Counted from the first letter of the stretch, positions 17,983-60,372 are shown. The stretch: 64,000 nucleotides of DNA from an uncultured Pseudomonadales bacterium (GCA_964527065.1 CAZGNX010000001.1:45-64044), one strand, 5' to 3'. Made by a program: numbers and translations. The notes: generated by a model not told the origin, from the sequence alone.

Positions 17983-18134
17983 AATAGTCTCAGTATATCA
18001 GCTAGCTGGCAAGTCGGTAACTCAGTGAAATCGGTAGATTATTATTCAGTAAGCCAGCAGATCAGTGTTTCTGTTTTGCTGATGCACGGGGTGGCTGATT
18101 TGCCGAAAAACCGAATAACTGGTTTCACAGCTCA

Positions 18135-18776: not shown

Positions 18777-18944
18777 GAAGCTAGTATAGCGGTTGTTCTC
18801 GCAATCTGCACGACCCCAAACGCAAAAGCGGTCTATCTGCGTCTGCTGACGCAGCGACCTAGAACTCGGCCTAACACGGCCTGCGTAGTTTTTGCAACTT
18901 GTGGCGCGCAGATCACTCGAACAATCTCTTATTAAGAAGGAGAT

Positions 18945-19946: not shown

Positions 19947-19991
19947 ACAGTTTGAGTATACGGTATGCGGTAGAGAGTATGAAGTATGGGA

Positions 19992-20618
19992 TCAAGGAGA
20001 TGGAGACGGACTGGCAATAACATACCTGTGGGCTTCGGCGTCACCGCCCATGCTCTTTACCCACTCCTTGATTTCGTCAATGGCTTCTTGCGAAGTTATA
20101 TTGAGATTTTTGAGGGTGATCTCTAGTGTCATGGGGGAGGAGTAGACCACGCGGTAGAGTGGGGTGGTGTAGGGGGTGGATTGGGCAAGAGGATAGTCGC
20201 GCGCTAGCTCATCCTTCATGTTTTTGATGAGCAGCGGGTCGGTTTGAGAAGCTTGGGTGGTGAAGGAGTAGTCAGGAAGCTTTTGGTCTTTCCACTTGAT
20301 TTGCAGGAGATATTTTGTTTGTGGTTGAAGAAGAAGAGCAGGCTGTGCTCGTAGGCTTGTGGGGCTGCTTTGACTAAGCGTCCAGGAGATGCTTGGAACA
20401 GAGGCGAGTGTAAAATCAGCCGCAAAAACCTCTTCATCAAAAGTCAATAATGGTTTGATCTCGAGGCTTACGGCAAGGGCATTATGTGTGGGATTAGCTG
20501 CTACAATTTGGGGAGGGCTCGCCATCGACTTGTTCAAAAACACAAAAATAGCCAAAACGACCCCTAGGCCAACAGCCATGATTACATATAAGAGCCTTGA
20601 TCGTAAAAAGCGCTGCAT
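19992..20618 (-). CDS. membrane-anchored hypothetical protein (T4SS locus)
   Basis: ~208 aa. N-terminal TM 'LLYVIMAVGLGVVLAIFVFL', then a Ser/Thr-rich extracytoplasmic region. Translationally coupled to the upstream 945-aa gene. Confidence 0.5.
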   Translation of the reverse strand: MQRFLRSRLLYVIMAVGLGVVLAIFVFLNKSMASPPQIVAANPTHNALAVSLEIKPLLTFDEEVFAADFTLASVPSISWTLSQSSPTSLRAQPALLLQPQTKYLLQIKWKDQKLPDYSFTTQASQTDPLLIKNMKDELARDYPLAQSTPYTTPLYRVVYSSPMTLEITLKNLNITSQEAIDEIKEWVKSMGGDAEAHRYVIASPSPSP

Positions 20619-23455: not shown

Positions 23456-23498
23456 GGGGTTATTCTAGCATTGTGCTTGCCTCTGGTGTGATAGAATT

Positions 23499-26400: not shown

Positions 26401-26798
26401 TGGAGATGCCTGTCATGGGGAAAAGCGCCACAGATGGATGGTACCTAGGGAGAGGACTGAAATTCTCATTGGAAGAGGCCAAAGAGGGTAGGCGTAATCC
26501 CATGGTGATGAAGAAGATTGAGATCCAAAATGAGATTGCTTGGGGGATAGTGTCTCCGCAGGAAGGCGGCCAGAAAATGCGAGACTGGCAGAAAATGATA
26601 TATTTTGGCGATCAAATAGTCCTAGGAAAACTAAAACTGAGGCCTGGGATGATCCCCTTTTTGACCCCGTACTTTTTACTGCGAGGCTACTGGGTAGACA
26701 GGATGGGTTTTGATTGGGAGGACTTTAAGATGATTATGGCCAAGCAAAATGAAGAGACGTGGGAAAAGCTGAAGAAGTTACTGGGGATTGAAATATAG
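23499..26798 (+). CDS. large orphan protein (1099 aa), Lys/Glu-rich helical N-terminus, no recognisable domain
   Basis: Long uninterrupted ORF with protein-like composition. No TM, signal peptide, Walker or HUH motifs found. Embedded between the two T4SS operons. Confidence 0.7.
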   Translation: MPMGEHLQVGISDKLRALVEKARGEKKPRDNEDAPIGEKKKNILEWALTAAATRIVLARDVGELSVQLKDIQSSLAGGKDTAEVDRLRAAVMDKMDELVHGEDLIEANTAMKGYIYSGKVGDAVALLEKMAKQDRYKLTTAQHKEVDELLGSVKDLDTEKSANDAVIEAKIKQVEQKGGALSKTVDKELTSIRDSSNEIETSVSAKNLENEKLKLIPKKLTKKKIEIKQAEVVEIAQQADKVADKHDKATKHDNRFIKKLLEGGNDGFGVVDASGNLVIEIDKLSHPKAEYLYGRVSTALGRYQSKLGSPDNAELKAYLEEVEFELRGRLHDLEDIDREKWRVEGKTEDEMKWEKLPAIEKSRIIENFDFIDKNMSAEQMLQHAMRERQNQGISMKRSEVALQNLLREHPEIRAKFNEKGEWVGTAEEFFELCRLEIYKIRDSVPEERLGNLVFEETADIYLALMGISTKNNPELKNMKDAVTKTLYLEFVVKSLWKAGGNHEAWQRAAALILREGADTNFFLTMKVREKLRGKDKRGNDIPPLPGFNIDDMMTLGELRAPNGQSWLAYISTNNIQLNESRLQEMGNALAKLTLEKAKLRKNKDRKMEISSADYSTYLAMLTNKEIKFDKEQLDWVRNYMQYIHVATLNVGEKLWLMDGTVPGRKGFDYASLPGGQFAQKSGLWPILYFAKYNVTKYGFEGLGKLFIPNPGLLSYARGETLRHFMSANGSEDWLRDPEGDLYKPGGGARDFFFEGKTKTDQEMKVFTDFWEEIWLDSRTGTSFKSKGMRSLQNSRDVGMELIKLNKHKDFIDDMKFDQLERLVGHEIPGATNEEKLTWVVGNLDYDMMEMSTMPSKREGDWVNKYSKIYVETVKAFQDFLDAPTLTNKMKIITSVAQYNSEAVSNLSKQLNDFIENKSKYKIGLLKRKNPKTGQIELGNPLNPFHWIGPKTVSDDQKDLVRSADGDNMEMPVMGKSATDGWYLGRGLKFSLEEAKEGRRNPMVMKKIEIQNEIAWGIVSPQEGGQKMRDWQKMIYFGDQIVLGKLKLRPGMIPFLTPYFLLRGYWVDRMGFDWEDFKMIMAKQNEETWEKLKKLLGIEI

Positions 26799-26801
26799 TG
26801 C

Positions 26802-28376
26802 TTAGGCTGATTTTTTTGGTTTGCCACTGCCTTCTTCTTCGTATTTCTTCATAGCATCGACGTTGGCACGAGCTTGGAATTCTGCCATTGAGCGTTGCTC
26901 GCGGAGCGAACGAGCTTGCTTGCCCCAGCCCACAGGATAGCCCACACCGGTTGAAACAACCCCACCAAAGGCTTTGAGAGCCTCGGCACCATAGGGAGAT
27001 TCTTTGACTTGTAGCCATTCCTGAGCCATCTTGGCAGCTGAAGGGGTCATGAGGAAAACAAAAAACCCGATCAAGGCCAGGATATCCAGACTTTGGACAT
27101 CAGCGTTGGGACCTAAGGCATCGGTCAAGGTGAAGGGGGGGACCCAGACTTCTGTACGTCCAGCAATATCTCTCACCCCAAAAGGATTCTGTTGGCCGAT
27201 TGTGGAGGGACCGCCGTCGCCTGGCCACAGGTCATTGGCGACAATGGCGCTCGTGGGATTGCCAATCAAGATGGCAGAGAAAATAAACATACTCGCCACA
27301 ACGGGGAAGGGAATGAGGTAGCTAGCTGTGGTTTTGATCCAGGTAGAGAAGGCCTTACTCCCGGGCATGGCGTTCATCAAGATTTGAAGTGGGGCGGTGA
27401 TGGTTTGGACGATGAGCATGACGTAGGATTTAATGAGAGCAACCATTAATTTAAGCATAGCTATGATAAAACTAACCACCACAAACAAATAAAGGGGCGA
27501 AACCATTCCGAGAGTTAAAAACTGCGTGGCAGTGTCGAGAAAGTTGACGAGACCACCAACAATGCCAATACCACCAGTACCAAGGCTACCCAGTACTCCC
27601 TGAAGAGACCCAGTAACGGCTAGGATAATGCTGTTGCGGCCAGCAAAGACCACATTCCAGGCAGAATGAGTCATCAACCTTTCGATGGAGGCGCTTGCAT
27701 CAATGATCCCTACTGAGGCAATGAGATACACGACAAAGTAGATGAGAAAATACATGAGGTCGATCATAAAACCGACGATAGCGTAGGAGAAGGTGATGAG
27801 CAAGAGTGTCACGAGGAGGTTGGGGATGGCACTCTGAATGGTAATCACTGTCTGGGCATTCACCTTAGTGCGGAGCATAATCATGACGCCCACAACCACG
27901 AACATGATGATGTAGAGTGAGTAGGCGACATTGCGGAAGACTTTCCAGAATTCGAGAAATGGTTGCATTGCTGTGTAGCCCGTGCCTTGGGCGTAGGCCC
28001 GACTGACAGAGGGAATGCCAATGTTGTCAAGCAGATCGGCAACATATTCTCGGCTGGAGATTTGGTTGTTATAGATCATGGCGACAACCTTGCCTTGTGT
28101 GCCCAAAACACCGGGGCTGTAAATATAGCCGAGACCATCAGCCGAAGGGAGCTTGCCACCCAAAAAAGCAAATTGATTTTGTGGTACTGAGCTCAGGCGA
28201 TCTTTGATACAGGGATCTTCTGGGGTATTGGCAACGTTAAAGCTGGTGATAGTTAGGTTGCTGTTGATAGCGCAGATAAAGCCATTCAGTAGTCCAGGAG
28301 TGGCCTCTACGGCAGAGGCAGGGGTGGGACTGGTGAGGAAGAGAAACATAAGAAAGACGAGCAAGAGCTTTTTCAT
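26802..28376 (-). CDS. VirB6/TrbL-like polytopic membrane protein
   Basis: 524 aa. Signal peptide 'MKKLLLVFLMFLFLTSPTPASA', ≥6 TM helices, hydrophilic C-terminus. Placement within a T4SS-like operon. Confidence 0.5.
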   Translation of the reverse strand: MKKLLLVFLMFLFLTSPTPASAVEATPGLLNGFICAINSNLTITSFNVANTPEDPCIKDRLSSVPQNQFAFLGGKLPSADGLGYIYSPGVLGTQGKVVAMIYNNQISSREYVADLLDNIGIPSVSRAYAQGTGYTAMQPFLEFWKVFRNVAYSLYIIMFVVVGVMIMLRTKVNAQTVITIQSAIPNLLVTLLLITFSYAIVGFMIDLMYFLIYFVVYLIASVGIIDASASIERLMTHSAWNVVFAGRNSIILAVTGSLQGVLGSLGTGGIGIVGGLVNFLDTATQFLTLGMVSPLYLFVVVSFIIAMLKLMVALIKSYVMLIVQTITAPLQILMNAMPGSKAFSTWIKTTASYLIPFPVVASMFIFSAILIGNPTSAIVANDLWPGDGGPSTIGQQNPFGVRDIAGRTEVWVPPFTLTDALGPNADVQSLDILALIGFFVFLMTPSAAKMAQEWLQVKESPYGAEALKAFGGVVSTGVGYPVGWGKQARSLREQRSMAEFQARANVDAMKKYEEEGSGKPKKSA

Positions 28377-28399
28377 AGTTCACCTGATTTTATCATATA

Positions 28400-28909
28400 T
28401 TAGGGCTTGAGCTTGAGAGCGGTAATCCAGGCTTGGGTAGTATGTCTCACATATTCTTTGTCGCCGTAGATGAAAATGAGTTTTTTGGGATCAATATTTT
28501 GACCTTCAAGCATCTCCATAGCCTTGAGATAACTTTCTTTGAACGCTGTGACGTTGGGGTTCTTTTTTTCGTCTGCATCCGCGTTGAGATATGAGAGGCC
28601 GTAGATCTCGAGACGTACAATCTCGGCTTCGTCGTCGTCAAGGCGATAGAGGTTGATAGAAGTGGTGATGCCCACGGAGGTCTCGAAGGACTCGAGGTAG
28701 AGTGGGAGCTTGTTTTCAATCGAAGCAACATACACCATAGTGTCGCGGCGTTTTTCGGCTGAGAGATCGGCGAGTTCGATGCGGCTGGGTCCAGTTGGGA
28801 CGGGTAGTTCTGCAGGGTTGCTGACATTTTTACTTGGCGAGAGAAGTAGTACTAGGACGAGGAGAGAGATCGAGATAGCGGCGGCGATAAGGAAGAATTT
28901 GTTGTTCAT
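28400..28909 (-). CDS. membrane-anchored hypothetical protein
   Basis: 169 aa. N-terminal TM 'FFLIAAAISISLLVLVLLL'. Translationally coupled (3-nt gap) to the upstream 879-aa gene. Confidence 0.5.
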   Translation of the reverse strand: MNNKFFLIAAAISISLLVLVLLLSPSKNVSNPAELPVPTGPSRIELADLSAEKRRDTMVYVASIENKLPLYLESFETSVGITTSINLYRLDDDEAEIVRLEIYGLSYLNADADEKKNPNVTAFKESYLKAMEMLEGQNIDPKKLIFIYGDKEYVRHTTQAWITALKLKP

Positions 28910-28911
28910 AC

Positions 28912-31551
28912 CTAGAACCCTGGTAGCTTGATAATATCACCCGCGACAATACGCAAAATCGAGACCGAGAAAATAAGGAAGAGGAGTCCGGTGACGGCGG
29001 CACCAAAGAGTTCTTTGCCTTTTTTGAGTTTCTCGTCATTGTCTCTGGCGGTCATGATTTGGAAGATGGCGATAAACATCACCACGATAGCGATACCGCC
29101 GGCTAGGCCGACCAAGAAAGCAAAAAGCGCGGTGCCAAAGGCCTCTCTCGTGTAGGGGATACAACCCAGGGCGGTGGAGAGTGATTGCGGGCCACAACTC
29201 GTGGGGAAGAAGCCGAAGGTGCCAGGCTCGTTGTCTGGTGTTGTGGGGGGGATTAGTGGGGCGGGAGGGGGAGAGGGGAGCTCGGTATTTTCATAACCAC
29301 CCTTGGTCATGTTGTTATACACGCTGAGAGCAACAGTAAACGAACCAGGTCTTTCAAAGATTTGAGGGGCGCAGGCGGTGCGGTCGGCACAGTAGAGGAG
29401 ATACATCGAATCGTGTTTGCCATCGAGGAAGCTGGTCGGGTAGGGATCGTCCTCGCCTTCAAAAGCGCGGGGACAGCCGCCATAGGGGATGGGATAAGGA
29501 TAACCGAGTTGACAGTTACTGTTGCCACCACCGTTGTAGCGGGAGAGAGCGGTGATGGCAGTCTGCGCATCCCCAATTGCCCCGCCCACCTTGCCTTTGA
29601 GATGTTCACCCGCATAGACGGCAGTCTCAAGGAGGGAGCGGAAGATCTTACCGCCCGCATCGGGCTCGGGAGTGCCGAGAGCCCGCCCAGAAACGAGTGA
29701 GCCATTGGGGTTATTGGCCGCCTCGACAAAGTGGATACCCGCCAAGATTTCACACGGTACGCCGGTCTCCTTTTCGGCGGCGGCATAGGTGTTCATTAGT
29801 TCGGCGCTCAAATTGGGTTGGATAAACGTCGAGAAGTAGCTCTCGCCCTTGGCGCTCGCGCTCTGATAATTACTACTGCCAAGCAGTTCACCAAACAGCC
29901 GTCCGTCACATTTACCTTCTGGTACCACCTGGGCGGTATCGCAGCCATTGCGGGTACCCAGAGCGTACGCCTCAACGCTAGTCTCAAGCTGAGCGGAAAA
30001 CATGTTGTCAGCACAGGTGTAGTAGCCATAATGACGCCTACCATCGGCGGGACCTGAGTATTTGCCTGCTTTGAGAAGATCAAGGTTGTCGTCTACGACA
30101 TTGCTGAGTTTAACATTAAACTCTTTGACTGATTCTAGCTCGGCCAAGGTATCGCGAGTGTCGTAGGTGTATTGCTTAATCTCTGCGATACTTTGACCCA
30201 TTGCGTCTGGAATTGTCAAGAGGTGATAAACGACAGGTTCAACGTCGTCAATCTGAGCGCCCCAAATGAGATTGATGAGAGCTTGTAGAAGGTTGCCGGT
30301 GGGGAATGCCGCGGCCTTTTCTTTTTGTACCTCTGGTTGGAGGCGGTAGCCAGGGCAGTTTTTATCTCCTCCGAGAAAAGATGGTGTTTCCAAATAGTCG
30401 TAGATTTGGTAAAAGGCGCCGTAGGAACCAAAGTGATATTTGAAACAGGGATTGCTCGCCATAAGCTCTGGAATGAGGCGTGCCTTAATCTTTTTGGCGG
30501 TGGCGTTTGGCGCCGCAGAGCCAGCAAAGCGAATTAGCTGGTTGGACGAGGCAAGGTCGCGAATTATTTTGCTTGCCTCATCTAGTGGATAGGTGAGAAG
30601 TAGATCGTCAAGGGCGGCGCCAAAGGCTTGGGAGATAGAGATGTCGCCGTAGAGCGCGTTGGAGTTGCCCTCCAACGCAAGGCTGCTAAAGGGGCAGTTT
30701 TCTCCGGGGCAACAGCGATCCCAGACGCAGATACTGGCGTGGACATACCCCTGGCGAAACGAGGGGCTATACATCGGGACTTGGGAGAGGTCCCTAAACC
30801 ACTCAGGTGGGGTAGTTTGTGAAGCTGCCTCTTCTATAGCGTCACAGGCTCGTTTACGGGAGCTTGAGGCATCGGAGACGGCATCGAGATTGCCGGCGTT
30901 TAAGAAAAAATCGTCCGTTGCTTCCACTATCACCTGTCCAGCCCCTGCCAATCCTCCAGGTATTTCGTCGCGGATCTCGAGTAAGGTTTTGCCGTTCTGG
31001 GTTGTGTAGCCCCAGTCGACCCAGCCAAGTGGCCACTGCCCAGTCTCAGCTAGAGTGTTCTTGGTTTGCTTGGCACGAATCACGACCATGAGCTGTTTGG
31101 TCATGATCTCGCACTGAGTAAGCCCGAGGAAGTGGGTACCCCAAGTGATCGCGTTATCTGTACCCATGTTGCCATACAAGAGGGCTTCGTTTTGGATTTT
31201 GGGGAAAACGAGGCGAGTGAGTGGACGAGCGCCCGTCTCAGCTCCCGTTTCTTGATTCAGTGTCCGATTCTCAGCGGAAAAGTCCGTAGCTTTGATATCG
31301 GAGCCAACGCGGGGTTTTTTCTTGTACTCACATTCGCCCACGCTAACCCCACTCTTGGTAGGATCTTTGATGGCGGTACAACTACCATTGCCTGAAGAGA
31401 CTGTACTATGATAATCACCTCTGCCATTGGCCACCTTGCGCTCACAGAGATCAACCTCTCCACCATCACAGCCGTCAATGAGCTCGCCTGATTGATTATC
31501 GCGCTCACAATAGTCATCTCTACGATCAGCACCTTCGTACTCACAGACCAT
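28912..31551 (-). CDS. giant secreted fusion protein: Cys-rich region + SLT-like lytic transglycosylase motif + C-terminal VirB2/TrbC-like pilin module. Preceded in frame by a signal-peptide ORF cut off by TAG
   Basis: 879 aa from the Met at 31551. 'ILAGIHFVEAANNPNGSLVSGRALG' resembles the SLT catalytic 'ESSFNPNA...GA.GLMQ'. The last ~80 aa ('LGCIP...GLAGGIAIVVMF...KKGKELFGAAVTGLLFLIFSVSILRIVAGDIIKLPGF') are nearly identical to ORF 38811..39248. Confidence 0.7.
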   Translation of the reverse strand: MVCEYEGADRRDDYCERDNQSGELIDGCDGGEVDLCERKVANGRGDYHSTVSSGNGSCTAIKDPTKSGVSVGECEYKKKPRVGSDIKATDFSAENRTLNQETGAETGARPLTRLVFPKIQNEALLYGNMGTDNAITWGTHFLGLTQCEIMTKQLMVVIRAKQTKNTLAETGQWPLGWVDWGYTTQNGKTLLEIRDEIPGGLAGAGQVIVEATDDFFLNAGNLDAVSDASSSRKRACDAIEEAASQTTPPEWFRDLSQVPMYSPSFRQGYVHASICVWDRCCPGENCPFSSLALEGNSNALYGDISISQAFGAALDDLLLTYPLDEASKIIRDLASSNQLIRFAGSAAPNATAKKIKARLIPELMASNPCFKYHFGSYGAFYQIYDYLETPSFLGGDKNCPGYRLQPEVQKEKAAAFPTGNLLQALINLIWGAQIDDVEPVVYHLLTIPDAMGQSIAEIKQYTYDTRDTLAELESVKEFNVKLSNVVDDNLDLLKAGKYSGPADGRRHYGYYTCADNMFSAQLETSVEAYALGTRNGCDTAQVVPEGKCDGRLFGELLGSSNYQSASAKGESYFSTFIQPNLSAELMNTYAAAEKETGVPCEILAGIHFVEAANNPNGSLVSGRALGTPEPDAGGKIFRSLLETAVYAGEHLKGKVGGAIGDAQTAITALSRYNGGGNSNCQLGYPYPIPYGGCPRAFEGEDDPYPTSFLDGKHDSMYLLYCADRTACAPQIFERPGSFTVALSVYNNMTKGGYENTELPSPPPAPLIPPTTPDNEPGTFGFFPTSCGPQSLSTALGCIPYTREAFGTALFAFLVGLAGGIAIVVMFIAIFQIMTARDNDEKLKKGKELFGAAVTGLLFLIFSVSILRIVAGDIIKLPGF

Positions 31552-43851: not shown

Positions 43852-44295
43852 ATGGGTATGATAGTTAATAAACTGGCCAAGAGAGAGTATCAGATATCCG
43901 ACACGTGGGTGGCGGGGGTGATGCTCACAGGTGCTGAGGTCAAGACTCTGCGGGGCGGGCGGGGGAGTCTGCGGGATGCCTACGCCAAGCTGATTGGGGG
44001 CGAGTTGTTCCTGGTTGGGGCTGATATTCCGCAATACAGCCATTTTGCGGGGCAAGAATATGACTCTAAGCGGTCGCGTAAACTCCTCCTTAAATCAAGT
44101 GAACTTATTAAGATCCAGCAGAAAGTTGAAGGGAAGAATCTAACTCTTGTGCCGCTGCGGTTATTCTTTAAGGGGAGATGGGCTAAGTGTGAGATAGGAA
44201 TAGGTAAGGGGAAGAAAGAGTGGGAGAAGCGGGAGGATATCAAGCGGCGGGACGTGAACCGAGAGTTGGCCAAGGCCATTAGAAAAAAAGTTTAG
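43852..44295 (+). CDS. smpB: SsrA-binding protein
   Basis: 147 aa. 'YQISDTWVAGVMLTGAEVKTLRGG', 'LVPLRLFFKGRWAKCEIGIGKGKK', basic C-terminal tail. Confidence 0.9.
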   Translation: MGMIVNKLAKREYQISDTWVAGVMLTGAEVKTLRGGRGSLRDAYAKLIGGELFLVGADIPQYSHFAGQEYDSKRSRKLLLKSSELIKIQQKVEGKNLTLVPLRLFFKGRWAKCEIGIGKGKKEWEKREDIKRRDVNRELAKAIRKKV

Positions 44296-44298
44296 TGT

Positions 44299-44744
44299 GG
44301 AGACGGAGGGCAATGAGCCCTCGTCCGCGTACCGCTACTAACATCATCTACATACTTAGATAATTTTGGCCCACCTTCGCCGAGGCTTCGGCGGGTAAAA
44401 TTTTAACCTCTTTTATCTTTGGTAATTATCTAACCATCAGACCTAGGAGGGTAGTCTATGATATGGCTCTGAGCGACAACCCCAGAGTTACGTCTCGTGT
44501 GTGTTTCCACCTACGTCTTCCCCACGAGCAAGTGGGACGTAAATGTCCTGTTAGGCTCTATAACCCGCAAAGGTGTAGTTACCGATCAAGGAAGCAAACG
44601 CAGCATCAGCTTTCGCCAATACTTTGTTTACTGTCTGTGCAATTTTATTGACAGATTTTTTTTGACGCTGTTTGACAACTTCTCTCGTCAAAGTTGGTAT
44701 GCAGATGTTAATGAGCTGGTACACGTCAAAGCAAGACGTCCCCA
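44299..44744 (-). ncRNA. ssrA: tmRNA (ssrA) candidate, convergent with smpB; boundaries approximate
   Basis: 3' end reads GGAC-GAGGG-CUCAUUG-CCCUC-CGUCUCC-A (tmRNA-style GGAC + T-arm + 7-nt acceptor strand + discriminator A), ending 3 nt after the smpB stop. 5' GGGGACG at 44744 pairs with it perfectly and is followed by ...GCUUUGAC... (cf. GGAUUCGAC). Possible tag ORF ending ...FAGYRA-UAA at 44551, followed by hairpins. Confidence 0.4.
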
Positions 44745-51651: not shown

Positions 51652-51736
51652 ATGGAGGTACTATCTCAAACTAGGTGAAATATATCAAGAGGATTTATAA
51701 CGGATTTATAAATTACTCTGGGGATTTTATAAACTG

Positions 51737-51820
51737 CGGAGGAGGTGGGATTCGAACCCACGAGACTCTTACGAGTCGAAGGTTAGCAACCTTCTCGAAT
51801 GGCCACTATCGGACTCCTCC
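51737..51820 (-). tRNA. tRNA-Ser (anticodon GCU), class II long variable arm
   Basis: Hand-folded: acceptor GGAGGAG/CUCCUCC, anticodon stem GAAGG/CCUUC, loop UUGCUAA, variable arm GACUCGUAAGAGUCUC, T-arm GUGGG-UUCGAAU-CCCAC, discriminator G. Confidence 0.85.
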
Positions 51821-51860
51821 AGTAGCAAGGATTATATCAGGGAAAAATAAATAAGAGGGG

Positions 51861-51948
51861 CGGAAGGGGAGGGATTCGAACCCTCGGTAGGCTATTAACC
51901 CACAGATGTTTAGTAGACATCGGCACTCGACCACTATGCGACCCTTCC
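51861..51948 (-). tRNA. class II tRNA (Ser-like, discriminator G) with anticodon loop CUACUAA, i.e. canonical anticodon ACU
   Basis: Hand-folded: acceptor GGAAGGG/CCCUUCC, D-stem GCAU/GUGC, anticodon stem GAUGU/ACAUC, loop C-U-A-C-U-A-A, long variable arm, T-arm GAGGG-UUCGAAU-CCCUC. Confidence 0.65.
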
Positions 51949-51959
51949 AGGTTTGAAAA

Positions 51960-52965: not shown

Positions 52966-53670
52966 ATGGTCAAGTTGCAAAGCTCTAAGCTTGGTAAGTA
53001 CACCATGTGGTACGAGAACAGCGAGGAGTTCCATATACTCAAACGCGAAGTTTTTGGGCGCAATGATTACTATGTTCAGCTTGAGGGAGAGCACCCAGTG
53101 ATAGTGGATGCGGGGGCGTATATTGGAGACACAACTCTCTACTTTAAACTGCTGTACCCTAGTGCGCGGGTAATAGCGCTCGAGCCCTATCCCCACAGTT
53201 TTGAGTTGCTTAAGCGCAACGTAGAGGAGAATCAATTGACAGGAGTGGATCTGGTACAGGCGGCGCTCGCGCCCAAATCGGGTGAGGTGACACTACATGC
53301 GGACAACTCGGGACACGACTGGTTCACCACAGTCAGCGCTAGCCTAAGCGGGTGGGATAAGCGGCAGACAACAACACCTTTACAGGTGAGGGGAGTGACA
53401 TTGACAGAAGTGGTGCAAGGCGAGATAGACCTGTTAAAGATGGATATTGAGGGGATGGAGGGGACAATCCTCAAGTCGCTTAAAAGCGAATTCCCCCGCA
53501 TCAAAAATATCGTGATGGAACTACACCCCGTAGGAGGGAGGCTGCCCCAGGAGATACTGACACTGCTTACACAATCAGGGTACAGCGTCGAGGTGCGGGT
53601 AGAGGGACAGGTGGTAGAACACCCTGAACAGGTCAGGGAATTGGCGATCCTGACGGCGACGCGCCAATAA
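52966..53670 (+). CDS. FkbM-family SAM-dependent methyltransferase
   Basis: 'VIVDAGAYIGDTTLYF' SAM-binding motif, 'LLKMDIEGMEGTIL' FkbM signature. Confidence 0.8.
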   Translation: MVKLQSSKLGKYTMWYENSEEFHILKREVFGRNDYYVQLEGEHPVIVDAGAYIGDTTLYFKLLYPSARVIALEPYPHSFELLKRNVEENQLTGVDLVQAALAPKSGEVTLHADNSGHDWFTTVSASLSGWDKRQTTTPLQVRGVTLTEVVQGEIDLLKMDIEGMEGTILKSLKSEFPRIKNIVMELHPVGGRLPQEILTLLTQSGYSVEVRVEGQVVEHPEQVRELAILTATRQ

Positions 53671-54922: not shown

Positions 54923-54957
54923 TGCTAGAATAGCCAGACTAATTGCTCTGGAGATAT

Positions 54958-55617
54958 ATGGCCTTGCTCAGTATCAAACAATTGAATGTCTGGGTAGGGG
55001 GTAAGCAGGTGCTGAGAGATTTTGACCTCCTGGTAGACAAGGGCGAGGTGCATGCTCTCATGGGTAGTAATGGAAGCGGAAAAAGCAGTTTGGCGAACGC
55101 CTTGATGGGCAATCCAAACTATGGAGTAGAGGGAGGTGTGATTACCTTCGCCGGGGAAGATCTACTGGGAATGACGAGCAATGAGCGTGCGCGGGCAGGG
55201 CTGTATGTAGCTTGGCAAACCCCGGTTATCATACCGGGCGTGTCAGTATTCAGTTTGTGCAAAGCAAGCTATGAGGCGCAGGGGAAGACGATCGGGAAAC
55301 TCACGCAGTTTAAGCAGACTCTAGAAAAGTTGGCAGTACGAGTAGGGCTGACTAAGGAATATGTAGGGAGGGGAGTCAACGAAGGATTCTCTGGTGGTGA
55401 GCGAAAGCGACTCGAACTGTTGCAGCTACTTCTCCTTGCGCCCAAACTTGCCATACTCGATGAGATAGACTCGGGACTTGACGCTCGTGGTGTGAAGATC
55501 CTGACTCAGATTGTGCAGGAGATGAGAGAACAAGGTACGAGTTTCCTCCTCATAACCCACAACAAACGATTACTCGAGTCAGTATTGGTTACAAAAGTAT
55601 GGAAGATTACCAACTAG
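54958..55617 (+). CDS. sufC: Fe-S cluster assembly ATPase SufC
   Basis: Walker A 'GSNGSGKSSL', ABC signature 'FSGGERKR', Walker B 'LAILDEIDSGLD'. Overlaps the sufB start. Confidence 0.85.
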   Translation: MALLSIKQLNVWVGGKQVLRDFDLLVDKGEVHALMGSNGSGKSSLANALMGNPNYGVEGGVITFAGEDLLGMTSNERARAGLYVAWQTPVIIPGVSVFSLCKASYEAQGKTIGKLTQFKQTLEKLAVRVGLTKEYVGRGVNEGFSGGERKRLELLQLLLLAPKLAILDEIDSGLDARGVKILTQIVQEMREQGTSFLLITHNKRLLESVLVTKVWKITN

Positions 55618-58094
55618 GCTTTAGCAGTGAGACAGGGGGCTACGCGTACAAAGCGAAGAAGGGCTTGTCGGAGAGCGTGGTGCGTGAGATCTCGGGACAA
55701 AAACACGAACCAGCATGGATGCTTGATTTACGCCTCGCGGCACTGAATCAATACGAGAGTATGCCGATCCCGCAGTGGGGTGCAGATCTGAGCGCTATCA
55801 ACTGGGACGATATCCACTACTACCTACGCCCAGTTGAAAAAGCGTATAAGAGTTGGGACGAAGTACCTGACTCGGTGCGACAAGTGTTTGATGCGATCGG
55901 AGTGCCTGAGGCTGAGAAGACCATGCTCGCGGGAGTGGGTGGGCAGTATGACAGCGAAGTGATCTACCATTCATTGCAAAAAGTATTGGCCAAGCGGGGG
56001 GTCGTGTTTCTCTCGATGGATGAAGGACTCAAACAATATCCCGAGATTGTTAAAAAATACTTTGGCACTGTCGTGCCATACGGTGACAATAAGCTCGCTG
56101 CGCTCAACGCGGCCGTATGGAGTGGGGGGAGCTTTGTGTATCTCCCAAAAGGAGTGGCGGTGGATCTGCCGCTACAAGCCTATTTCCGTATCAACGCAGA
56201 GAACGCGGGACAGTTTGAGCGAACGTTGATCATCGCGGAAGAGGGATCATCTGCTCACTATGTGGAGGGTTGCAGCGCTCCCGCCTTTACGAGCGCCTCA
56301 CTGCATGCGGCAGTTGTCGAAGTGATAGTGCACGACCGCGCCAAAGTGCGCTACACCACAGTGCAAAACTGGTATAAGACTGTCTACAACCTGGTGACTA
56401 AAAGAGCAAAAGTTGCGAAAGAGGCTAGAATGGAATGGGTGGACTGTAATCTAGGGTGTTTAACTGGCGATACTCAACTGCTCTCTCCATCTGACGGAGT
56501 AGTTAGGATGGACGAAATCAAGATGGGACAGACTGTTTTTGCATACGATTTCGACATATCTCAATTTGTAGAGCGTAAGGTTACTGGCTGGCAAAAAACT
56601 GGACATAGGAAGGTGTGGGGGGTGTTGTTAGAGGGTAGGCGGCTTCGGGCGACAGATAATCATCCATTTCTGGTTTTGGAGAGACAAGATAGGTTAGGAA
56701 GTAAAAGCAATGCCGGTGTTCGTTCTTTTGCCATGCAATGGAAACCACTGCGAGACTTATCTCGAGGAGATATGGTGGCGTATGTAGGAGGATTACCTGA
56801 TCTTGGTAAAACAAGAAAGTTAGAGTTTGAGTTTGTTAGTCGTGGCAGTGGTGGATATGTGAAATACCGTCCTCATTTGCCAAAAAAGACTAACGAAGAG
56901 TTGTTGTGGTTGCTCGGTGCGTATTTGGGCGATGGATATATGGAACGAGATTCCAAGACTAAAAGATTGCGAAGAGTTTACTTTGCTGTGCCTCCCAAAG
57001 ATAAAGCGCGTCAAAGATTAATTGATACACTTAACAAGTTATTTGGGGACGTGGTGACCACTAAGGGTATATGCGTGACGATTAACTCGACGGCGATAGC
57101 ACAGTTTTTTGAGTATCTGGGAATGAAGGGAAATGCTCATACAAAGCGCGTGCCTTCGTGGGTATTTACCTTGCCGTTTCAAGAACGGTTGGCCTTGCTT
57201 GAAGGATGCTTGGATACAGATGGCAACGTGCGGCGACTGACCCACCAAATAACCTTTACAAGCGCAGGGAAAGACTTGATGCTTGATCTACAGCAGTTGG
57301 CTATAAGTTGTGGACTCAAGATATACAAAATTCGCAAGCAGACCTTAGTTAGAACTCTGCCGCTTGGTAAAGAGCAAAAAGAATATACTTCGTATCAATT
57401 TTGCCTCTCAAACAGTGATTTAGGAGCCCTCAGGAGTCATCGAGTCAATAGTACAAGCAGATTGGTTTTTGCTCGCGTAACCAGTGTTGAAGTGATTGGA
57501 GAAGAGGATGTATACGACATTGAGGTAGAAGGGTCGCATAATTTTGTAGCTAACGGGATAGTCGTTCATAACAGCAAGGTCACCATGAAGTATCCCTCAT
57601 GCTTACTAGAAGGTGATAGAGCACATGGGGAGATGCTCTCGATTGCGGTGGCAGGAGTGGGCCAGCATCAAGATGCAGGTGCCAAGATGATCCATATGGC
57701 GCCCAACACCACGAGCAAAATCACCAGTAAGTCGATTAGTCGGGGCGGGGGGCGCAGTAGTTATCGGGGGCAAGTGAAGATCATTCCCACAGCCACAGGG
57801 TCGAGGAGCAAGGTGGTATGTGACGCGCTCATAATGGACGCGCAGAGCCGCTCCGATACCTATCCGACCAACCAGATTATGACAGGGGAGGCAACGCTCG
57901 AGCATGAGGCATATGTGTCACGGATCGGGGAGGAGCAGATACTCTACCTCATGTCGCGGGGACTAAGCGCCAAGGAAGCGGAGGGGATGATTATTCGTGG
58001 GTTTATAGAGCCAGTGATACAGGAGCTGCCGATGGAGTATGCGGTGGAGCTTAATCGTCTCGTGAAACTTGAAATGACAGGATCTGTAGGATGA
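55599..58094 (+). CDS. sufB: Fe-S cluster assembly protein SufB interrupted by an intein with LAGLIDADG homing endonuclease
   Basis: N-extein ends '...EWVDCNLG'. Intein starts 'CLTGDTQLL' and ends 'VVHN'. C-extein begins 'SKVT...' and carries SufB C-terminal motifs ('MSRGLSAKEAEGMIIRGF'). Exteins total ~459 aa. Confidence 0.9.
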   Translation: MEDYQLGFSSETGGYAYKAKKGLSESVVREISGQKHEPAWMLDLRLAALNQYESMPIPQWGADLSAINWDDIHYYLRPVEKAYKSWDEVPDSVRQVFDAIGVPEAEKTMLAGVGGQYDSEVIYHSLQKVLAKRGVVFLSMDEGLKQYPEIVKKYFGTVVPYGDNKLAALNAAVWSGGSFVYLPKGVAVDLPLQAYFRINAENAGQFERTLIIAEEGSSAHYVEGCSAPAFTSASLHAAVVEVIVHDRAKVRYTTVQNWYKTVYNLVTKRAKVAKEARMEWVDCNLGCLTGDTQLLSPSDGVVRMDEIKMGQTVFAYDFDISQFVERKVTGWQKTGHRKVWGVLLEGRRLRATDNHPFLVLERQDRLGSKSNAGVRSFAMQWKPLRDLSRGDMVAYVGGLPDLGKTRKLEFEFVSRGSGGYVKYRPHLPKKTNEELLWLLGAYLGDGYMERDSKTKRLRRVYFAVPPKDKARQRLIDTLNKLFGDVVTTKGICVTINSTAIAQFFEYLGMKGNAHTKRVPSWVFTLPFQERLALLEGCLDTDGNVRRLTHQITFTSAGKDLMLDLQQLAISCGLKIYKIRKQTLVRTLPLGKEQKEYTSYQFCLSNSDLGALRSHRVNSTSRLVFARVTSVEVIGEEDVYDIEVEGSHNFVANGIVVHNSKVTMKYPSCLLEGDRAHGEMLSIAVAGVGQHQDAGAKMIHMAPNTTSKITSKSISRGGGRSSYRGQVKIIPTATGSRSKVVCDALIMDAQSRSDTYPTNQIMTGEATLEHEAYVSRIGEEQILYLMSRGLSAKEAEGMIIRGFIEPVIQELPMEYAVELNRLVKLEMTGSVG
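56457..57572 (+). mobile_element. SufB intein (372 aa) with Hint block A/B and G residues plus LAGLIDADG motifs
   Basis: Cys1 (TGT at 56457-56459), 'ATDNHPFLV' block B (Thr-x-x-His), LAGLIDADG-1 'LLGAYLGDGYM', LAGLIDADG-2 'LLEGCLDTDGNV', terminal 'HN' + Ser(+1). In frame. Confidence 0.8.
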
Positions 58095-58266
58095 AAATAA
58101 TAATGTTGGAGACCCTCCTTAGCTCTATCGAGCTTCGGCGGGGCAAGGTGGTGGGGAGTGTAGGATGATATGCAAATAATCAATAATCAAATTCCAAACA
58201 TCAAACAAATCCAAAATTCTAATTGCCAAAAGTTTAATTATTTTGTTATTAATTATTGTTTGAATA

Positions 58267-58758
58267 TTGGTTATTGTTGATTGGATGTTTATGAAACGAG
58301 AAGTAGTCAAAATAAGTAATCCAGGTGTATATAACTTTGTTGTGAATTTTGACAGAGTAGGTCAGGAGATAGAGTGGGTGGGGATAGTTGATGGGAGAGA
58401 ACCAGGTGAGTATGAGCTACGAGTGACAGCTGACCACAGCGCAGTAGGCACCAGCGGGCGGATCACTGTGCGGGGTGTGGCGGGGCCAGGATCGGTCGTG
58501 AAAGTGTATGGCATGATTAAGATCTACAATGTGGCACAGAGGACCGACGACTTCCTCGAACTGCGCGTGCTGACGCTTGATAAAACCGCGCGGGCGGTGG
58601 CAGAGCCCATGCTTGAAATTGAAGCCAATGATGTGAAAGCGTCGCACGCGGCCAGTGTGGGAATGGTAGATAAAGAACAGGTACTCTATCTAATGAGTAG
58701 AGGATTGAGTGAGGGCAAGGCCCAGGATGAAATAGTACGGGGATGGTTGAGCGTATAA
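58267..58758 (+). CDS. sufD: minimal SufD-like protein (SufBD C-terminal domain only)
   Basis: 163 aa (start may be Met at 58285/58291). C-terminal 'VDKEQVLYLMSRGLSEGKAQDEIVRGW' parallels the SufB C-terminus. Confidence 0.55.
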   Translation: MVIVDWMFMKREVVKISNPGVYNFVVNFDRVGQEIEWVGIVDGREPGEYELRVTADHSAVGTSGRITVRGVAGPGSVVKVYGMIKIYNVAQRTDDFLELRVLTLDKTARAVAEPMLEIEANDVKASHAASVGMVDKEQVLYLMSRGLSEGKAQDEIVRGWLSV

Positions 58759-59993
58759 TCACTACTATGATTGATCCAAAGGTAGTTAAGAAAGATTTTC
58801 CAATTCTTTCGCGCGAAATAAATGGTAAGCCACTGGCGTATCTCGATAGTGGAGCGACGAGTCAGAAGCCGAGACAAGTATTGGATGCTGAGCGAAGTTA
58901 CTACGAACAGCACAACGCTAATGTACATCGCGGAGCTCATACGCTTGGAGATGAATCGACTAAGGTGTATGAAGAAGCACGGCACAAAGTGGCACATTTT
59001 ATCGGTGCTCCACGAGTAGAAGATGTTATATTTGTCCGTAATACCACGGAAGCAATTAATCTGGTTGCGTGTGCATGGGGAGTGGATAACATCAAAAAAG
59101 GTGATGTGGTGATATCAACTCTCATGGAGCACCATGCCAACATGGTGCCGTGGCAAGAAGTAGTGCGAGGGCTTGGGGCACGACTTGAACTGATAGGATT
59201 GACTGAGGACGGACAGCTCGATATGGGTGACTACAAGGCAAAGCTCAAACTAAAACCGAAGATGGTGGCGTTTACCCATGTGTCAAATGCGCTGGGCACC
59301 ATTAACCCAGTGGTGGTAATGACAAAATTAGCACACAGAGTAGGGGCACTAGTCCTGATTGACGGAGCTCAGGCGGTGCCGCATATGCGGGTGGATATCA
59401 AGGCAATTGGGTGTGACTTTTATGCATTCTCTGGTCATAAAATGCTTGGTCCAATGGGGATCGGGGTCTTGTGGGGGAGAAAAGAGCTACTTGAGAAGAT
59501 GTCTCCATTCCTTACGGGAGGTGGGATGATCAGCGAGGTCTACACTGACCACGCCACGTGGGCGGAGCTGCCTGACAAGTTTGAAGCTGGGACACCAAAC
59601 GTAGCAGGGGCGGTAGGACTGGCGGCTGCGATAGACTACCTCGAAAAACTGGGATTAGAAAATGTGAGGGAGCATGACAAAATGATTGTCAAATATGCAC
59701 TGCAGGAACTTTGCAAGGTACGGAACCTTGTAATACTTGGACCTACGGATTCGAGCGTGAGATCGGGATCTGTGAGCTTCACCTACACTGGCGTACATGC
59801 GCATGATGTGGCGACCATCCTGGACTCGGAGGGGGTGGCAATCCGGTCCGGCCACCACTGCACGATGCCACTCCACAACCACATGCATGTGATGGCCTCG
59901 ATCCGCGCAAGTTTTAATGTGTATAGCACCAAGGAGGATATAGATCAGCTGGTAAGGGCACTCGCAAAAGTTAAAGCAGTTTTCAAGAAATAG
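58743..59993 (+). CDS. sufS: cysteine desulfurase SufS (class V aminotransferase)
   Basis: 'NANVHRGAHTLG', PLP-lysine 'FSGHKMLGPMGIGVLWG', active-site Cys 'RSGHHCTMP'. Confidence 0.9.
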   Translation: MVERIITTMIDPKVVKKDFPILSREINGKPLAYLDSGATSQKPRQVLDAERSYYEQHNANVHRGAHTLGDESTKVYEEARHKVAHFIGAPRVEDVIFVRNTTEAINLVACAWGVDNIKKGDVVISTLMEHHANMVPWQEVVRGLGARLELIGLTEDGQLDMGDYKAKLKLKPKMVAFTHVSNALGTINPVVVMTKLAHRVGALVLIDGAQAVPHMRVDIKAIGCDFYAFSGHKMLGPMGIGVLWGRKELLEKMSPFLTGGGMISEVYTDHATWAELPDKFEAGTPNVAGAVGLAAAIDYLEKLGLENVREHDKMIVKYALQELCKVRNLVILGPTDSSVRSGSVSFTYTGVHAHDVATILDSEGVAIRSGHHCTMPLHNHMHVMASIRASFNVYSTKEDIDQLVRALAKVKAVFKK

Positions 59994-59994
59994 T

Positions 59995-60372
59995 ATGGAT
60001 TTGTACAAAGAAGAAGTGATGGATCACTATAATAACCCGAGGAACCGGGGGAAGCTCTCGGGTGATGATGTGGTGACAGGCAAGGAAAATAACGCTAGTT
60101 GTGGGGATATGGTCGAGTTCTATCTCAAGATCAAAGAGGGGAGGATAGTTGAAGTGAAGTGGGAGGGGGCAGGATGTGCCATTACGACAGCGAGTGCGAG
60201 CAAGCTGAGTGAGTATCTGCATGGTCGATCCCTCAAGGAGTTGCAGAAAATGGATGAGAAGGGGTTGGCGAGAGAGGGAGTGGGATTTGAGGTGAATGCA
60301 GGGAGAAGCAAGTGTTTAATGTTGCCAGTTACAGCAGTGGAGAAGCTTTTGACCCACACGCCAAAAATTTGA
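59995..60372 (+). CDS. sufU: SufU/IscU-like Fe-S scaffold / sulfur acceptor
   Basis: 'MDHYNNPRNRG', 'NASCGDMVEF', 'GAGCAI' conserved Cys motifs. Confidence 0.85.
   Translation: MDLYKEEVMDHYNNPRNRGKLSGDDVVTGKENNASCGDMVEFYLKIKEGRIVEVKWEGAGCAITTASASKLSEYLHGRSLKELQKMDEKGLAREGVGFEVNAGRSKCLMLPVTAVEKLLTHTPKI

What the first reader, a model, noticed from the sequence alone, without database searches (positions are those of the whole stretch)
55599..58094. SufB carries a 372-aa intein with an apparently intact LAGLIDADG endonuclease
Hint boundaries are clean: Cys1 after '...NLG', a TxxH block B, and a terminal His-Asn followed by Ser+1. Both LAGLIDADG motifs are present with their acidic residues (LGDGYM / LDTDGNV). 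This suggests an active or recently active homing element inside an essential Fe-S biogenesis gene. SufB inteins are known in Actinobacteria. Their presence in a reduced genome is notable, and it makes Fe-S assembly dependent on protein splicing.
Basis: partly seen in the sequence, partly recalled or inferred. Interest (0 to 1): 0.55.

Follow-up and report, generated by a model that had tools for sequence, protein, structure and literature searches.

The report
Ordinary homing intein inside SufB
The iron-sulfur assembly gene sufB of this small-genome (Microgenomates-like) bacterium is interrupted by a textbook self-splicing intein with a LAGLIDADG homing endonuclease; the same spot in SufB holds related inteins in at least 107 other species, so this is a real but ordinary mobile element.

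Summary
ORF 55599-58094 (+) encodes an 831-aa SufB precursor. Residues 287-658 (window 56457-57572) are a 372-aa in-frame intein. It has Cys1, block B T66/H69, block F D354/H361, terminal H371-N372 and Ser+1. It also has both LAGLIDADG motifs (D159, D255) and the block D lysine (K230). Pfam and NCBIfam intein models score above their cut-offs. An AlphaFold model (pLDDT 83) matches endonuclease-containing inteins such as TliVMA, PI-SceI and PI-PkoII.

The insertion site, NLG|SKVTMKYP (E. coli SufB G322|S323), is not the M. tuberculosis site (HYVEG|C), which lies 62 residues upstream. Homologous inteins occupy our site in at least 107 species-level genomes, including Chloroflexota, Acidimicrobiia, Patescibacteria and DPANN archaea. 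Some of those are endonuclease-less mini-inteins.

All 120 closest SufB exteins listed (76-88% identity) lack the intein, and one of them sits in a syntenic locus. The nearest intein relative is only 52% identical and sits in a much more distant SufB. This points to horizontal gain by homing, though not demonstrably recent.

Splicing and endonuclease activity are inferred, not shown. This is a new member of a well-known kind and of low interest.

The parts
55599..58094 (+). sufB precursor ORF (831 aa including the intein; overlaps the end of sufC by 19 nt)
   Evidence: TIGR01980 sufB 661 bits; PF19295 SufBD_N and PF01458 SUFBD_core split by the intein
55599..56456 (+). N-extein (286 aa), ending ...MEWVDCNLG; GC 52.3%
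   Evidence: aligns without gaps to intein-less SufB of L121
56457..57572 (+). Intein, 372 aa (Hint splicing domain plus LAGLIDADG endonuclease); GC 44.1%, GC3 41%
56457..56474 (+). Block A: Cys1 (CLTGDT), nucleophile of the N-S acyl shift
   Evidence: TIGR01445 intein_Nterm match to residues 1-73; aligned with CL(T/A)GD in relatives
56646..56669 (+). Block B: RATDNHPF with T66 and H69 (TxxH)
   Evidence: the (T/S)xNHPF motif is kept in every relative that covers this region in alignment A1
56901..56942 (+). Block C, first LAGLIDADG motif: LLWLLGAYLGDGYM, catalytic Asp159
   Evidence: G158, D159 and G160 at least 90% conserved in A1; aligns to LLGYYVSEGY of PI-PkoII
57141..57167 (+). Block D: TKRVPSWVF with Lys230
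   Evidence: K230 and P233 invariant in A1; aligns to KRIPEFVF of PI-PkoII
57189..57230 (+). Block E, second LAGLIDADG motif: LALLEGCLDTDGNV, catalytic Asp255
   Evidence: D255 and G256 invariant in A1; Pfam LAGLIDADG_3 match to residues 244-288; aligns to LEGYFIGDGDV of PI-PkoII
57276..57320 (+). Block H-like helix of the endonuclease (LMLDLQQLAISCGLK)
   Evidence: L274, L281 and G286 invariant, and L275, A282 and C285 nearly invariant, in A1; helix 272-284 in the model
57510..57557 (+). Block F: VYDIEVEGSHNFVANG (D354, H361)
   Evidence: D354, E356, N362, F363, A365 and G367 invariant in A1; aligned to the C-terminal halves of DnaX and DnaB mini-inteins
57558..57575 (+). Block G: IVVHN (His371, Asn372) plus the first C-extein residue Ser+1
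   Evidence: H371 and N372 invariant in A1; TIGR01443 intein_Cterm 38-41 bits; DNA read
57573..58094 (+). C-extein (173 aa plus stop), starting SKVTMKYPSC; it keeps the residues that align with E. coli SufB Cys405 (VVCDAL) and Glu432-His433-Glu434 (LEHEA); GC 54%
   Evidence: residue roles from PMC6006206
54943..55617 (+). sufC (ABC ATPase), upstream operon partner
   Evidence: PF00005, E = 7.5e-22; same gene order in L120 and L121
58267..58758 (+). Short SufD-like gene (163 aa), downstream operon partner
   Evidence: PF01458, E = 1.2e-30; TIGR01981, 110 bits, below its cut-off
58743..60372 (+). sufS (cysteine desulfurase, 58743-59993) and sufU (NifU_N, 59995-60372)
   Evidence: PF00266, E = 7e-145; PF01592, E = 1e-24

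Best explanation
This is a canonical class-1 bifunctional intein: a Hint splicing domain with a two-motif LAGLIDADG homing endonuclease nested inside it. It is inserted in frame into the conserved core of SufB at N-L-G|S-K-V-T-M-K-Y-P, which corresponds to E. coli SufB G322|S323.

Protein level. The gene is translated as an 831-aa precursor, and the intein then removes itself in four steps:
1. Cys1 makes a thioester with Gly-1, helped by block B T66/H69.
2. Ser+1 attacks this thioester to form the branched intermediate.
3. Asn372 cyclises, helped by H371 and H361, and releases the intein.
4. An O-N shift seals a normal peptide bond.
The product is the 459-aa SufB scaffold, which works with SufC, the short SufD, SufS and SufU encoded around it.

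DNA level. The excised intein acts as a site-specific endonuclease (acidic residues D159 and D255, with K230). It cuts intein-less sufB alleles at this conserved sequence, and the intein is copied in during repair of the break. That homing cycle explains three things: homologous inteins sit at exactly this site in very distant bacteria and archaea; some of them have lost the endonuclease; and this genome's nearest relatives have none.

Shown here: the in-frame insert, all catalytic motifs, homology, the predicted fold, site occupancy elsewhere, and empty syntenic alleles. Inferred: actual splicing, actual DNA cleavage, and horizontal gain.
For: - Exact boundaries and a 459-aa spliced product colinear with intein-less SufB.
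- Intein_splicing, intein_Nterm, intein_Cterm and LAGLIDADG_3 models above their cut-offs.
- In alignment A1 (22 inteins at this SufB site, 34-51% identical), K230, P233, D255, G256, D354, H371 and N372 are invariant, and G158, D159 and G160 are at least 90% conserved.
- AlphaFold model with pLDDT 83.4 and pTM 0.83. Best PDB matches are endonuclease-bearing inteins TliVMA, PhoVMA, PI-SceI and PI-PkoII (E = 2e-19 to 1e-10, TM up to 0.70-0.71).
- The sequence alignment with PI-PkoII places D159, K230 and D255 on its two motif acidic residues and its block D lysine.
Of these, 107 are SufB inteins at this same site, 142-410 aa long, and our intein aligns end to end with most of them.
- The 120 best extein homologues listed (76-88% identity) all lack the intein. 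L121 is a syntenic locus with an empty site, 87% aa and 75% nt identity in sufB.
- Hosts of the closest inteins have far more distant exteins: 51-65% identity in the C-extein, against 80-90% for the intein-less relatives compared.
- The extein keeps the residues that align with the critical E. coli residues Q285, W287, K303, C254, C405 and E432-E434.
- An identical precursor is present in an independent assembly.
Against: - No activity was measured.
- The nearest intein relative is only 52% identical (P0001). Nothing closer was found in the protein database, metagenome contigs or viral contigs, so there is no trace of a recent donor.
- No cluster of foreign substitutions flanks the junction at the protein level. 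Only 2 of 459 extein residues are absent from all 107 equal-length intein-less relatives compared. The single 90-nt window of lower nucleotide identity at the junction (0.61 against 0.67-0.83 elsewhere) is one comparison only.
- The lower GC of the intein (44% against 52-54%) is also seen in most low- and mid-GC hosts of this intein family. It does not date the insertion.
- Conserved LAGLIDADG motifs do not guarantee a working nuclease, because DNA-contact residues cannot be judged from sequence.
Confidence: 0.85

Rival explanations
1. The intein still splices, but its endonuclease is no longer active. After fixation in the population there is no empty target left, so the nuclease is drifting towards loss while its motifs are still recognisable (the late stage of the homing cycle).
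For: Both sampled assemblies carry the intein, with identical sequence. There is no close donor and no co-conversion tract. Endonuclease-less mini-inteins of 142-193 aa exist at the same site in L058, L090, L115, L001 and L069, and in P0029, which shows that this decay happens in the family.
Against: The reading frame is fully open over 372 codons. D159, K230 and D255 and the structural residues of both LAGLIDADG helices match the family consensus. The endonuclease core is the most confidently predicted part of the model, with pLDDT 84-96 for residues 141-330. No deletions relative to the closest full-length relative P0001 (371-372 aa aligned).
Confidence: 0.3
2. The intein has been co-opted as a conditional splicing switch that gates the SufB scaffold in response to redox state or metals, as proposed for the M. 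tuberculosis SufB intein.
For: SufB splicing is required for SufBCD assembly in M. tuberculosis and is inhibited by oxidants (PMC8529194). The N-extein here has a Cys at -4 (EWVDCNLG|C), so a C-x3-C pair with Cys1 is conceivable.
Against: The Mtu mechanism relies on a Cys1-Cys+1 disulfide; here +1 is Ser. Cys-4 is also present in intein-less relatives such as L121 and the clade consensus, so it did not co-evolve with the intein. Among intein-bearing alleles at this site it is seen in only 4 scanned loci (L006, L027, L028, L118). All 120 closest relatives listed manage without the intein.
Confidence: 0.07
3. The insert is a dead, non-splicing insertion (sufB pseudogene) or a chimeric assembly.
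For: None specific. Activity is untested, and the rest of the genome, which could hold a second sufB, is not visible.
Against: All catalytic splice residues are intact. The exteins stay under strong constraint, with only 2 residues absent from all 107 equal-length relatives compared. The operon is intact. An identical gene is present in an independent assembly.
Confidence: 0.02

Closest known systems
Homologous SufB inteins at the NxG|S(K/R)xTMKYP site in uncultured Patescibacteria, Chloroflexota, Acidimicrobiia, Dormibacteria and DPANN archaea (for example P0001 Candidatus Chisholmbacteria, L055 Gaiellales, L027 and L061 Patescibacteria)
   Same: Same host protein, same insertion point, same Cys1...HN|Ser+1 junctions, same domain order. 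End-to-end homology at 34-52% identity. The endonuclease motifs are conserved.
   Different: No relative is closer than 52% identity. At 372 aa it lies at the long end of the 'CLTGD...ANGxxVHN' subgroup (337-373 aa), which is distinct from the roughly 395-410-aa 'CLAEGS...GFIVHN' subgroup. Its host clade is otherwise intein-free among the 120 nearest SufB sequences listed.
Mycobacterium tuberculosis SufB (Pps1) intein, 359 aa
   Same: Class-1 intein with an intact-looking LAGLIDADG endonuclease, inside SufB of a SUF operon. Splicing is needed before SufBCD can assemble (PMC8891592, PMC8529194).
   Different: Different insertion site: HYVEG|CTAP, which is after residue 224 of our extein, against residue 286 here (62 residues apart). 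The Mtu protein has our site uninterrupted. Mtu uses Cys+1 and a Cys1-Cys+1 redox switch; this one has Ser+1. No Mtu-like sequence appeared among the intein's homologues.
Structurally characterised LAGLIDADG inteins: TliVMA and PhoVMA (7qsu, 7qss, 7qst), PI-SceI (1vde, 1lws), PI-PkoII (2cw7)
   Same: Same two-domain fold in the predicted model (Foldseek E = 2e-19 to 1e-10, TM 0.5-0.7). The LAGLIDADG acidic residues and block D lysine align with PI-PkoII.
   Different: Only 15-20% sequence identity, and different host proteins (V-ATPase, DNA polymerase). At 372 aa it is smaller than PI-SceI and PI-PkoII, whose crystallised chains here are about 400-450 and 537 residues.
Mycobacterium gastri / M. 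leprae Pps1 (SufB) inteins at alternative sites (PI-MgaI)
   Same: From memory only: three SufB/Pps1 insertion sites (a, b, c) were described in mycobacteria. Our site may be the most C-terminal one. PMC8891592 confirms that M. leprae, M. xenopi and M. triplex differ from Mtu in insertion site.
   Different: Not tested. The original papers are not held, and no named Mycobacterium species appeared in the searches. Only an unnamed Mycobacteriales MAG (L098) has an intein at our site, and it belongs to the 407-aa subgroup.

Membership tests
Class 1 intein (Hint domain, standard four-step splicing) | Cys/Ser/Thr at position 1, directly after the N-extein, in frame | tested here: met
   Cys1 at 56457-56459, after ...NLG
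Class 1 intein (Hint domain, standard four-step splicing) | Block B TxxH | tested here: met
   T66-D-N-H69; the (T/S)xNHPF motif is kept in every relative covering this region in alignment A1
Class 1 intein (Hint domain, standard four-step splicing) | Block F Asp/His and block G penultimate His plus terminal Asn, followed by a Cys/Ser/Thr +1 nucleophile | tested here: met
   D354, H361, H371, N372, Ser+1; TIGR01443 above its cut-off
Class 1 intein (Hint domain, standard four-step splicing) | Removal restores a contiguous, full-length host protein | tested here: met
   459-aa product colinear, without gaps, with intein-less SufB of L121 and with the 107 equal-length relatives compared
Class 1 intein (Hint domain, standard four-step splicing) | Autocatalytic protein splicing actually occurs | not testable with these tools
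   Needs expression of the precursor and detection of ligated exteins
LAGLIDADG homing endonuclease (two-motif, monomeric, intein-encoded) | Two LAGLIDADG helices, each ending in a catalytic acidic residue | tested here: met
   LGD159GY and LDTD255GN; conserved in the family; aligned to the PI-PkoII motifs; Pfam LAGLIDADG_3 above its cut-off for the second motif only
LAGLIDADG homing endonuclease (two-motif, monomeric, intein-encoded) | Alpha-beta-beta-alpha-beta-beta-alpha pseudo-dimeric fold inserted between the Hint halves | tested here: met
   AlphaFold model with pLDDT 84-96 across residues 141-330; Foldseek hits to PI-SceI, TliVMA, I-DmoI and I-SceI
LAGLIDADG homing endonuclease (two-motif, monomeric, intein-encoded) | Site-specific cleavage of the intein-less allele | not testable with these tools
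   Empty-site substrates are available in sequence (L121 positions 6001-7380), but cleavage needs an experiment
SufB intein family at the NxG|SKxTMKYP site | Insertion between the Gly of EW(V/I)DxN(L/I)G and the Ser of SKxTMKYP | tested here: met
   Same junction in 107 loci and in P0001-P0023
SufB intein family at the NxG|SKxTMKYP site | Intein sequence homologous over its full length to the other inteins at that site | tested here: met
   BLASTP residues 1-372 aligned to most of them, E = 1e-97 to 1e-26; phmmer E = 3e-115 to P0001
M. tuberculosis-type SufB intein | Insertion at HYVEG|CTAP with Cys+1 | tested here: not met
   Our intein is 62 residues downstream and has Ser+1. The Mtu C-extein contains our site uninterrupted
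SufB (Fe-S cluster assembly scaffold) | Equivalog-level match, and the residues critical in E. coli SufB (C254, Q285, W287, K303, C405, E432-E434) | tested here: met
   TIGR01980, 661 bits against a 346 cut-off. VEGC, TVQNW, VTKRA, VVCDAL and LEHEA are present and aligned to 5awf. Residue roles from PMC6006206

The most novel reading that the evidence does not exclude
In this Microgenomates-like bacterium the intein is not merely selfish. It acts as a post-translational gate on the SufB scaffold. For example, a reversible Cys-4/Cys1 (C-x3-C) disulfide or metal chelate could stall the first splicing step under oxidative or metal stress. That would be a redox switch built differently from the Cys1-Cys+1 switch of M. 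tuberculosis. Nothing here excludes it, but nothing supports it beyond the presence of Cys-4, which the intein-less relatives also have.
Probability: 0.05. Interest if true: 0.5.

Novelty: new member of a known kind. Interest (0 to 1): 0.2.

Why it matters
It matters little for biology at large. It does give three modest results.
1. It is a clean, divergent intein (at most 52% identical to anything found) that could be added to intein catalogues and tried as a Cys1/Ser+1 splicing tool.
It is distinct from the well-studied M. tuberculosis site.
3. It provides a natural pair of filled and empty syntenic alleles (the window and L121) for testing the endonuclease.

For annotation, it is also a reminder that intein-bearing SufB genes are often mis-called as truncated 'SufD family' proteins starting at the Met of MEW(V/I)D.

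Tried and rejected
- Same site as M. tuberculosis: rejected, using the Mtu C-extein sequence in the supplement of PMC8891592.
- Site identity with the M. leprae or M. gastri Pps1 inteins: could not be tested. Topilina 2015 and Huet 2006 are not held. Searches for PI-MgaI and Pps1-c found nothing useful. A protein search with the Mycobacteriales-MAG intein (L098) returned no named Mycobacterium.
- A recent donor: the protein database, metagenome contigs and viral contigs gave nothing above 52% identity, or 45% for full-length hits in the contig scans. The viral hits are other inteins at 23-29% over long alignments, or match only a short stretch of the intein.
- A co-conversion tract in the exteins: no protein-level signal. 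There is one 90-nt window of lower nucleotide identity at the junction against L121 (0.61). It rests on a single comparison and was not pursued.
- GC content as a clock: the intein is 8-10 points lower in GC than its exteins. The same offset is common in this intein family in low- and mid-GC hosts, and the exteins are themselves above the window average of 48%. It was rejected as evidence of recency.
- dN/dS was not attempted: at 52% amino-acid identity, synonymous sites are saturated. The second assembly has zero differences in sufB.
- Assembly artefact: rejected.
- Other inteins in the ten large ORFs of the window that were scanned (495-1099 aa): none found by Pfam.
Full report
**1. The observation**

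The + strand ORF 55599..58094 encodes 831 aa. Its ends match SufB. NCBIfam TIGR01980 scores 661 bits against a cut-off of 346, matched in two pieces: residues 3-287, then resuming after the insert. Pfam gives SufBD_N and a split SUFBD_core.

Between ...MEWVDCNLG and SKVTMKYPSC... lies an in-frame block of exactly 372 codons, window 56457..57572. It starts with Cys and ends in His-Asn, and is followed by Ser. Removing it leaves 459 aa, the length of 107 of the 120 best intein-less homologues, and it aligns to them without a gap.

The insert matches these models:
- Pfam Intein_splicing, E = 1e-18.
- Pfam LAGLIDADG_3, 27.5 bits (cut-off 22.5).
- TIGR01445 (intein N-terminal region) and TIGR01443 (intein C-terminal region), both above their cut-offs.

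A contig assembled independently from run SRR31850038 encodes the identical 831-aa protein and has no nucleotide difference in sufB. The feature is real.

**2. Anatomy**

In intein numbering, the key residues are:
- Splicing: Cys1 (block A); T66 and H69 (block B, RATDNHPF); D354 and H361 (block F, VYDIEVEGSHNFVANG); H371-N372 (block G); Ser+1.
- Endonuclease: LLWLLGAYLGD159GYM (first LAGLIDADG motif); TK230RVPSWVF (block D); LALLEGCLDTD255GNV (second motif); and a block H-like helix.

I aligned the intein with 22 database proteins that carry a homologous intein, all but one at this SufB site, at 34-51% identity. K230, P233, D255, G256, D354, H371 and N372 are invariant. G158, D159 and G160 are conserved in at least 90%. 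The nuclease's catalytic positions have therefore been held constant across a deeply diverged family.

An AlphaFold2 model built on that alignment has mean pLDDT 83.4 and pTM 0.83, and the endonuclease core is its best-predicted part. Foldseek against the PDB puts endonuclease-bearing inteins first: TliVMA, PhoVMA, PI-SceI and PI-PkoII (E = 2e-19 to 1e-10, TM up to 0.70-0.71). These are followed by free-standing LAGLIDADG enzymes (I-DmoI, I-SceI) and mini-inteins for the Hint part. A direct sequence alignment with PI-PkoII lines up D159, K230 and D255 with that enzyme's motif-1 acidic residue, block D lysine and motif-2 aspartate.

**3. Surroundings**

The gene sits in a compact suf operon:
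- sufC, 54943-55617, overlapping sufB by 19 nt.
- sufB with the intein.
- A short sufD-like gene, 58267-58758 (163 aa).
- sufS, 58743-59993.
- sufU, 59995-60372.

Named proteins among the best extein matches belong to the Microgenomates group of the Candidate Phyla Radiation: P0142, 'Microgenomates group bacterium GW2011_GWA2_46_7', at 80%, and P0120, ACD_40C, at 82%. The rest of the window looks the part. It has many large ORFs without Pfam domains, DUF4012 and a TraG-like ATPase.

**4. Insertion site**

Aligned to E. coli SufB (PDB 5awf), the site falls between G322 and S323. That is 19 residues after K303 and 35 after W287, both residues implicated in sulfur channelling (PMC6006206). It is a conserved stretch of the protein core.

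It is not the M. tuberculosis site. The Mtu intein occupies residues 253-611 of an 846-aa precursor, with His-5 and Cys+1 (PMC8891592). The paper's supplement prints the Mtu C-extein as CTAPIY...EWIDGNIGSKVTMKYP.... The Mtu intein therefore sits at HYVEG|C, after residue 224 of our extein and 62 residues upstream of ours. Our site is empty in M. tuberculosis.

A third SufB site, QY(D/E)|SEV(V/I)YH after residue 118, is seen in P0013, P0021 and P0035. From memory, mycobacterial Pps1/SufB inteins were described at three sites (a, b, c), and ours may be the third, used by M. gastri PI-MgaI. I could not check this.

**5. How common it is**

I scanned one genome per species (185,579 species) for the DNA pattern His-Asn-xxx-Thr-Met-Lys-Tyr-Pro. 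Of these, 107 are SufB genes with an intein ending at this exact junction, and 12 are chance matches.

Hosts include Chloroflexota, Acidimicrobiia and other Actinomycetota, Dormibacteria, Armatimonadota, Patescibacteria (L027, L061), and DPANN and other archaea. Lengths run from 142 to 410 aa. There is a roughly 395-410-aa 'CLAEGS...GFIVHN' subgroup, a 337-373-aa 'CLTGD...ANGxxVHN' subgroup to which ours belongs, and several mini-inteins of 142-193 aa that have lost the endonuclease. Our intein aligns end to end with most of the full-length ones. This is one large family of homologous inteins at a single site, in all stages of the homing cycle.

**6. History in this lineage**

The 120 best hits to the spliced extein (76-88% identity) all lack the intein. 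One of them lies in a locus with the same gene order as the window: methyltransferase, S30AE, RNase H-like, sufC, sufB, short sufD, sufS, sufU, tsaD, and sua5/tsaE. Its insertion site is uninterrupted (L121; 87% aa and 75% nt identity in sufB).

The closest inteins, by contrast, sit in much more distant SufB proteins. Their C-exteins are 51-65% identical to ours, against 80-90% for the intein-less relatives compared. The best of them, in a Candidatus Chisholmbacteria SufB, is 52% identical in the intein. Gain by horizontal homing is the parsimonious reading.

I found no sign that the gain was recent:
- Nothing closer than 52% exists in the protein, metagenome or viral collections.
- The exteins show no foreign patch next to the junction.
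- The GC deficit of the intein (44% against 52-54%; GC3 41% against 58-62%) recurs in most low- and mid-GC hosts of the family.

**7. Mechanism and rivals**

The most likely mechanism (confidence 0.85 for 'genuine splicing intein carrying a LAGLIDADG domain') is standard class-1 splicing, with Cys1 and Ser+1 as nucleophiles and Asn372 cyclisation. The excised protein then acts as the homing endonuclease.

- Whether the nuclease is still active is open. I put about 0.6 on active and 0.3 on splicing-competent but nuclease-dead, because both sampled genomes already carry the intein and decay is documented in the family.
- A regulatory, conditional-splicing role is possible but unsupported (0.05-0.07). 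The Mtu Cys1-Cys+1 switch cannot operate with Ser+1. The Cys at -4 (C-x3-C with Cys1) is also present in intein-less relatives.
- Pseudogene or artefact is very unlikely (0.02).

That Fe-S assembly depends on splicing follows from the position of the insert in the SufB core, and from the M. tuberculosis precedent (Huet et al. 2006, as cited in PMC8529194). Whether SUF is this organism's only Fe-S system cannot be seen from the window.

**8. Verdict**

The element is a new, fairly divergent member of a well-known kind, at a site that public genomes show to be heavily used. It is not the M. tuberculosis site, and it is not unusual for small-genome lineages. Interest is low (0.2).

Noticed in passing
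window 53520-53575 (inside ORF 52966-53670, Methyltransf_21): The window and the independent contig L120 are identical over about 8.5 kb except for 23 differences (substitutions and small indels). All 23 are packed into this 56-bp patch of the methyltransferase gene. It is a local hypervariable or recombined segment of unknown cause.
   Followed up: no
window 58267-58758: The SufD-like gene is only 163 aa. It covers positions 122-258 of the 275-position SufD model and scores below the equivalog cut-off. The syntenic relative L121 has a 155-aa version, so a minimal SufD seems to be a trait of the clade.
   Followed up: partly
window 58095-58266: There is an AT-rich spacer of 172 bp (local GC about 38%) between sufB and the short sufD, with no conserved ORF. 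In L121 a 61-aa ORF is called between the two genes.
   Followed up: partly
window 51736-51820 and 51858-51949 (- strand): ARAGORN calls two adjacent tRNA-Ser genes. The second has an unusual 'act' anticodon reported at position 36. Rfam at gathering threshold reports only the second one (51861-51948). This may be a mis-called anticodon or an atypical tRNA.
   Followed up: no
P0013, P0021, P0035 (database proteins); P0035 carries two inteins: SufB has at least two further intein sites: QY(D/E)|SEV(V/I)YH (after residue 118 of our extein) and YVEG|C (after residue 224, the M. tuberculosis site). The intein of P0021, at the first of these sites, is 36-40% identical to ours over about 60% of its length, which hints at movement between sites.
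   Followed up: partly
L058, L090, L115, L001, L069 (genome loci); P0029: Mini-inteins of 142-193 aa without an endonuclease occupy the same SufB site. They are natural deletion variants and could guide engineering of a mini version.
   Followed up: no
P0001 and many hits: Many public gene calls for intein-bearing SufB are 500-700 aa and are named 'SufD family protein'. At least some start at the Met of MEW(V/I)D just before the intein, and others are cut by contig ends. This looks like a systematic annotation problem for interrupted sufB genes.
   Followed up: no
window 16060-31551: A TraG/VirB4-like ATPase (16060-17982) lies next to four large ORFs without any Pfam match: 20618-23455, 23499-26798, 26802-28376 and 28912-31551, of 524-1099 aa. 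This may be a secretion or surface-protein cluster typical of CPR bacteria.
   Followed up: no
window 44295-44743 (- strand): A tmRNA gene, 68 bits, with a full-length model match.
   Followed up: no
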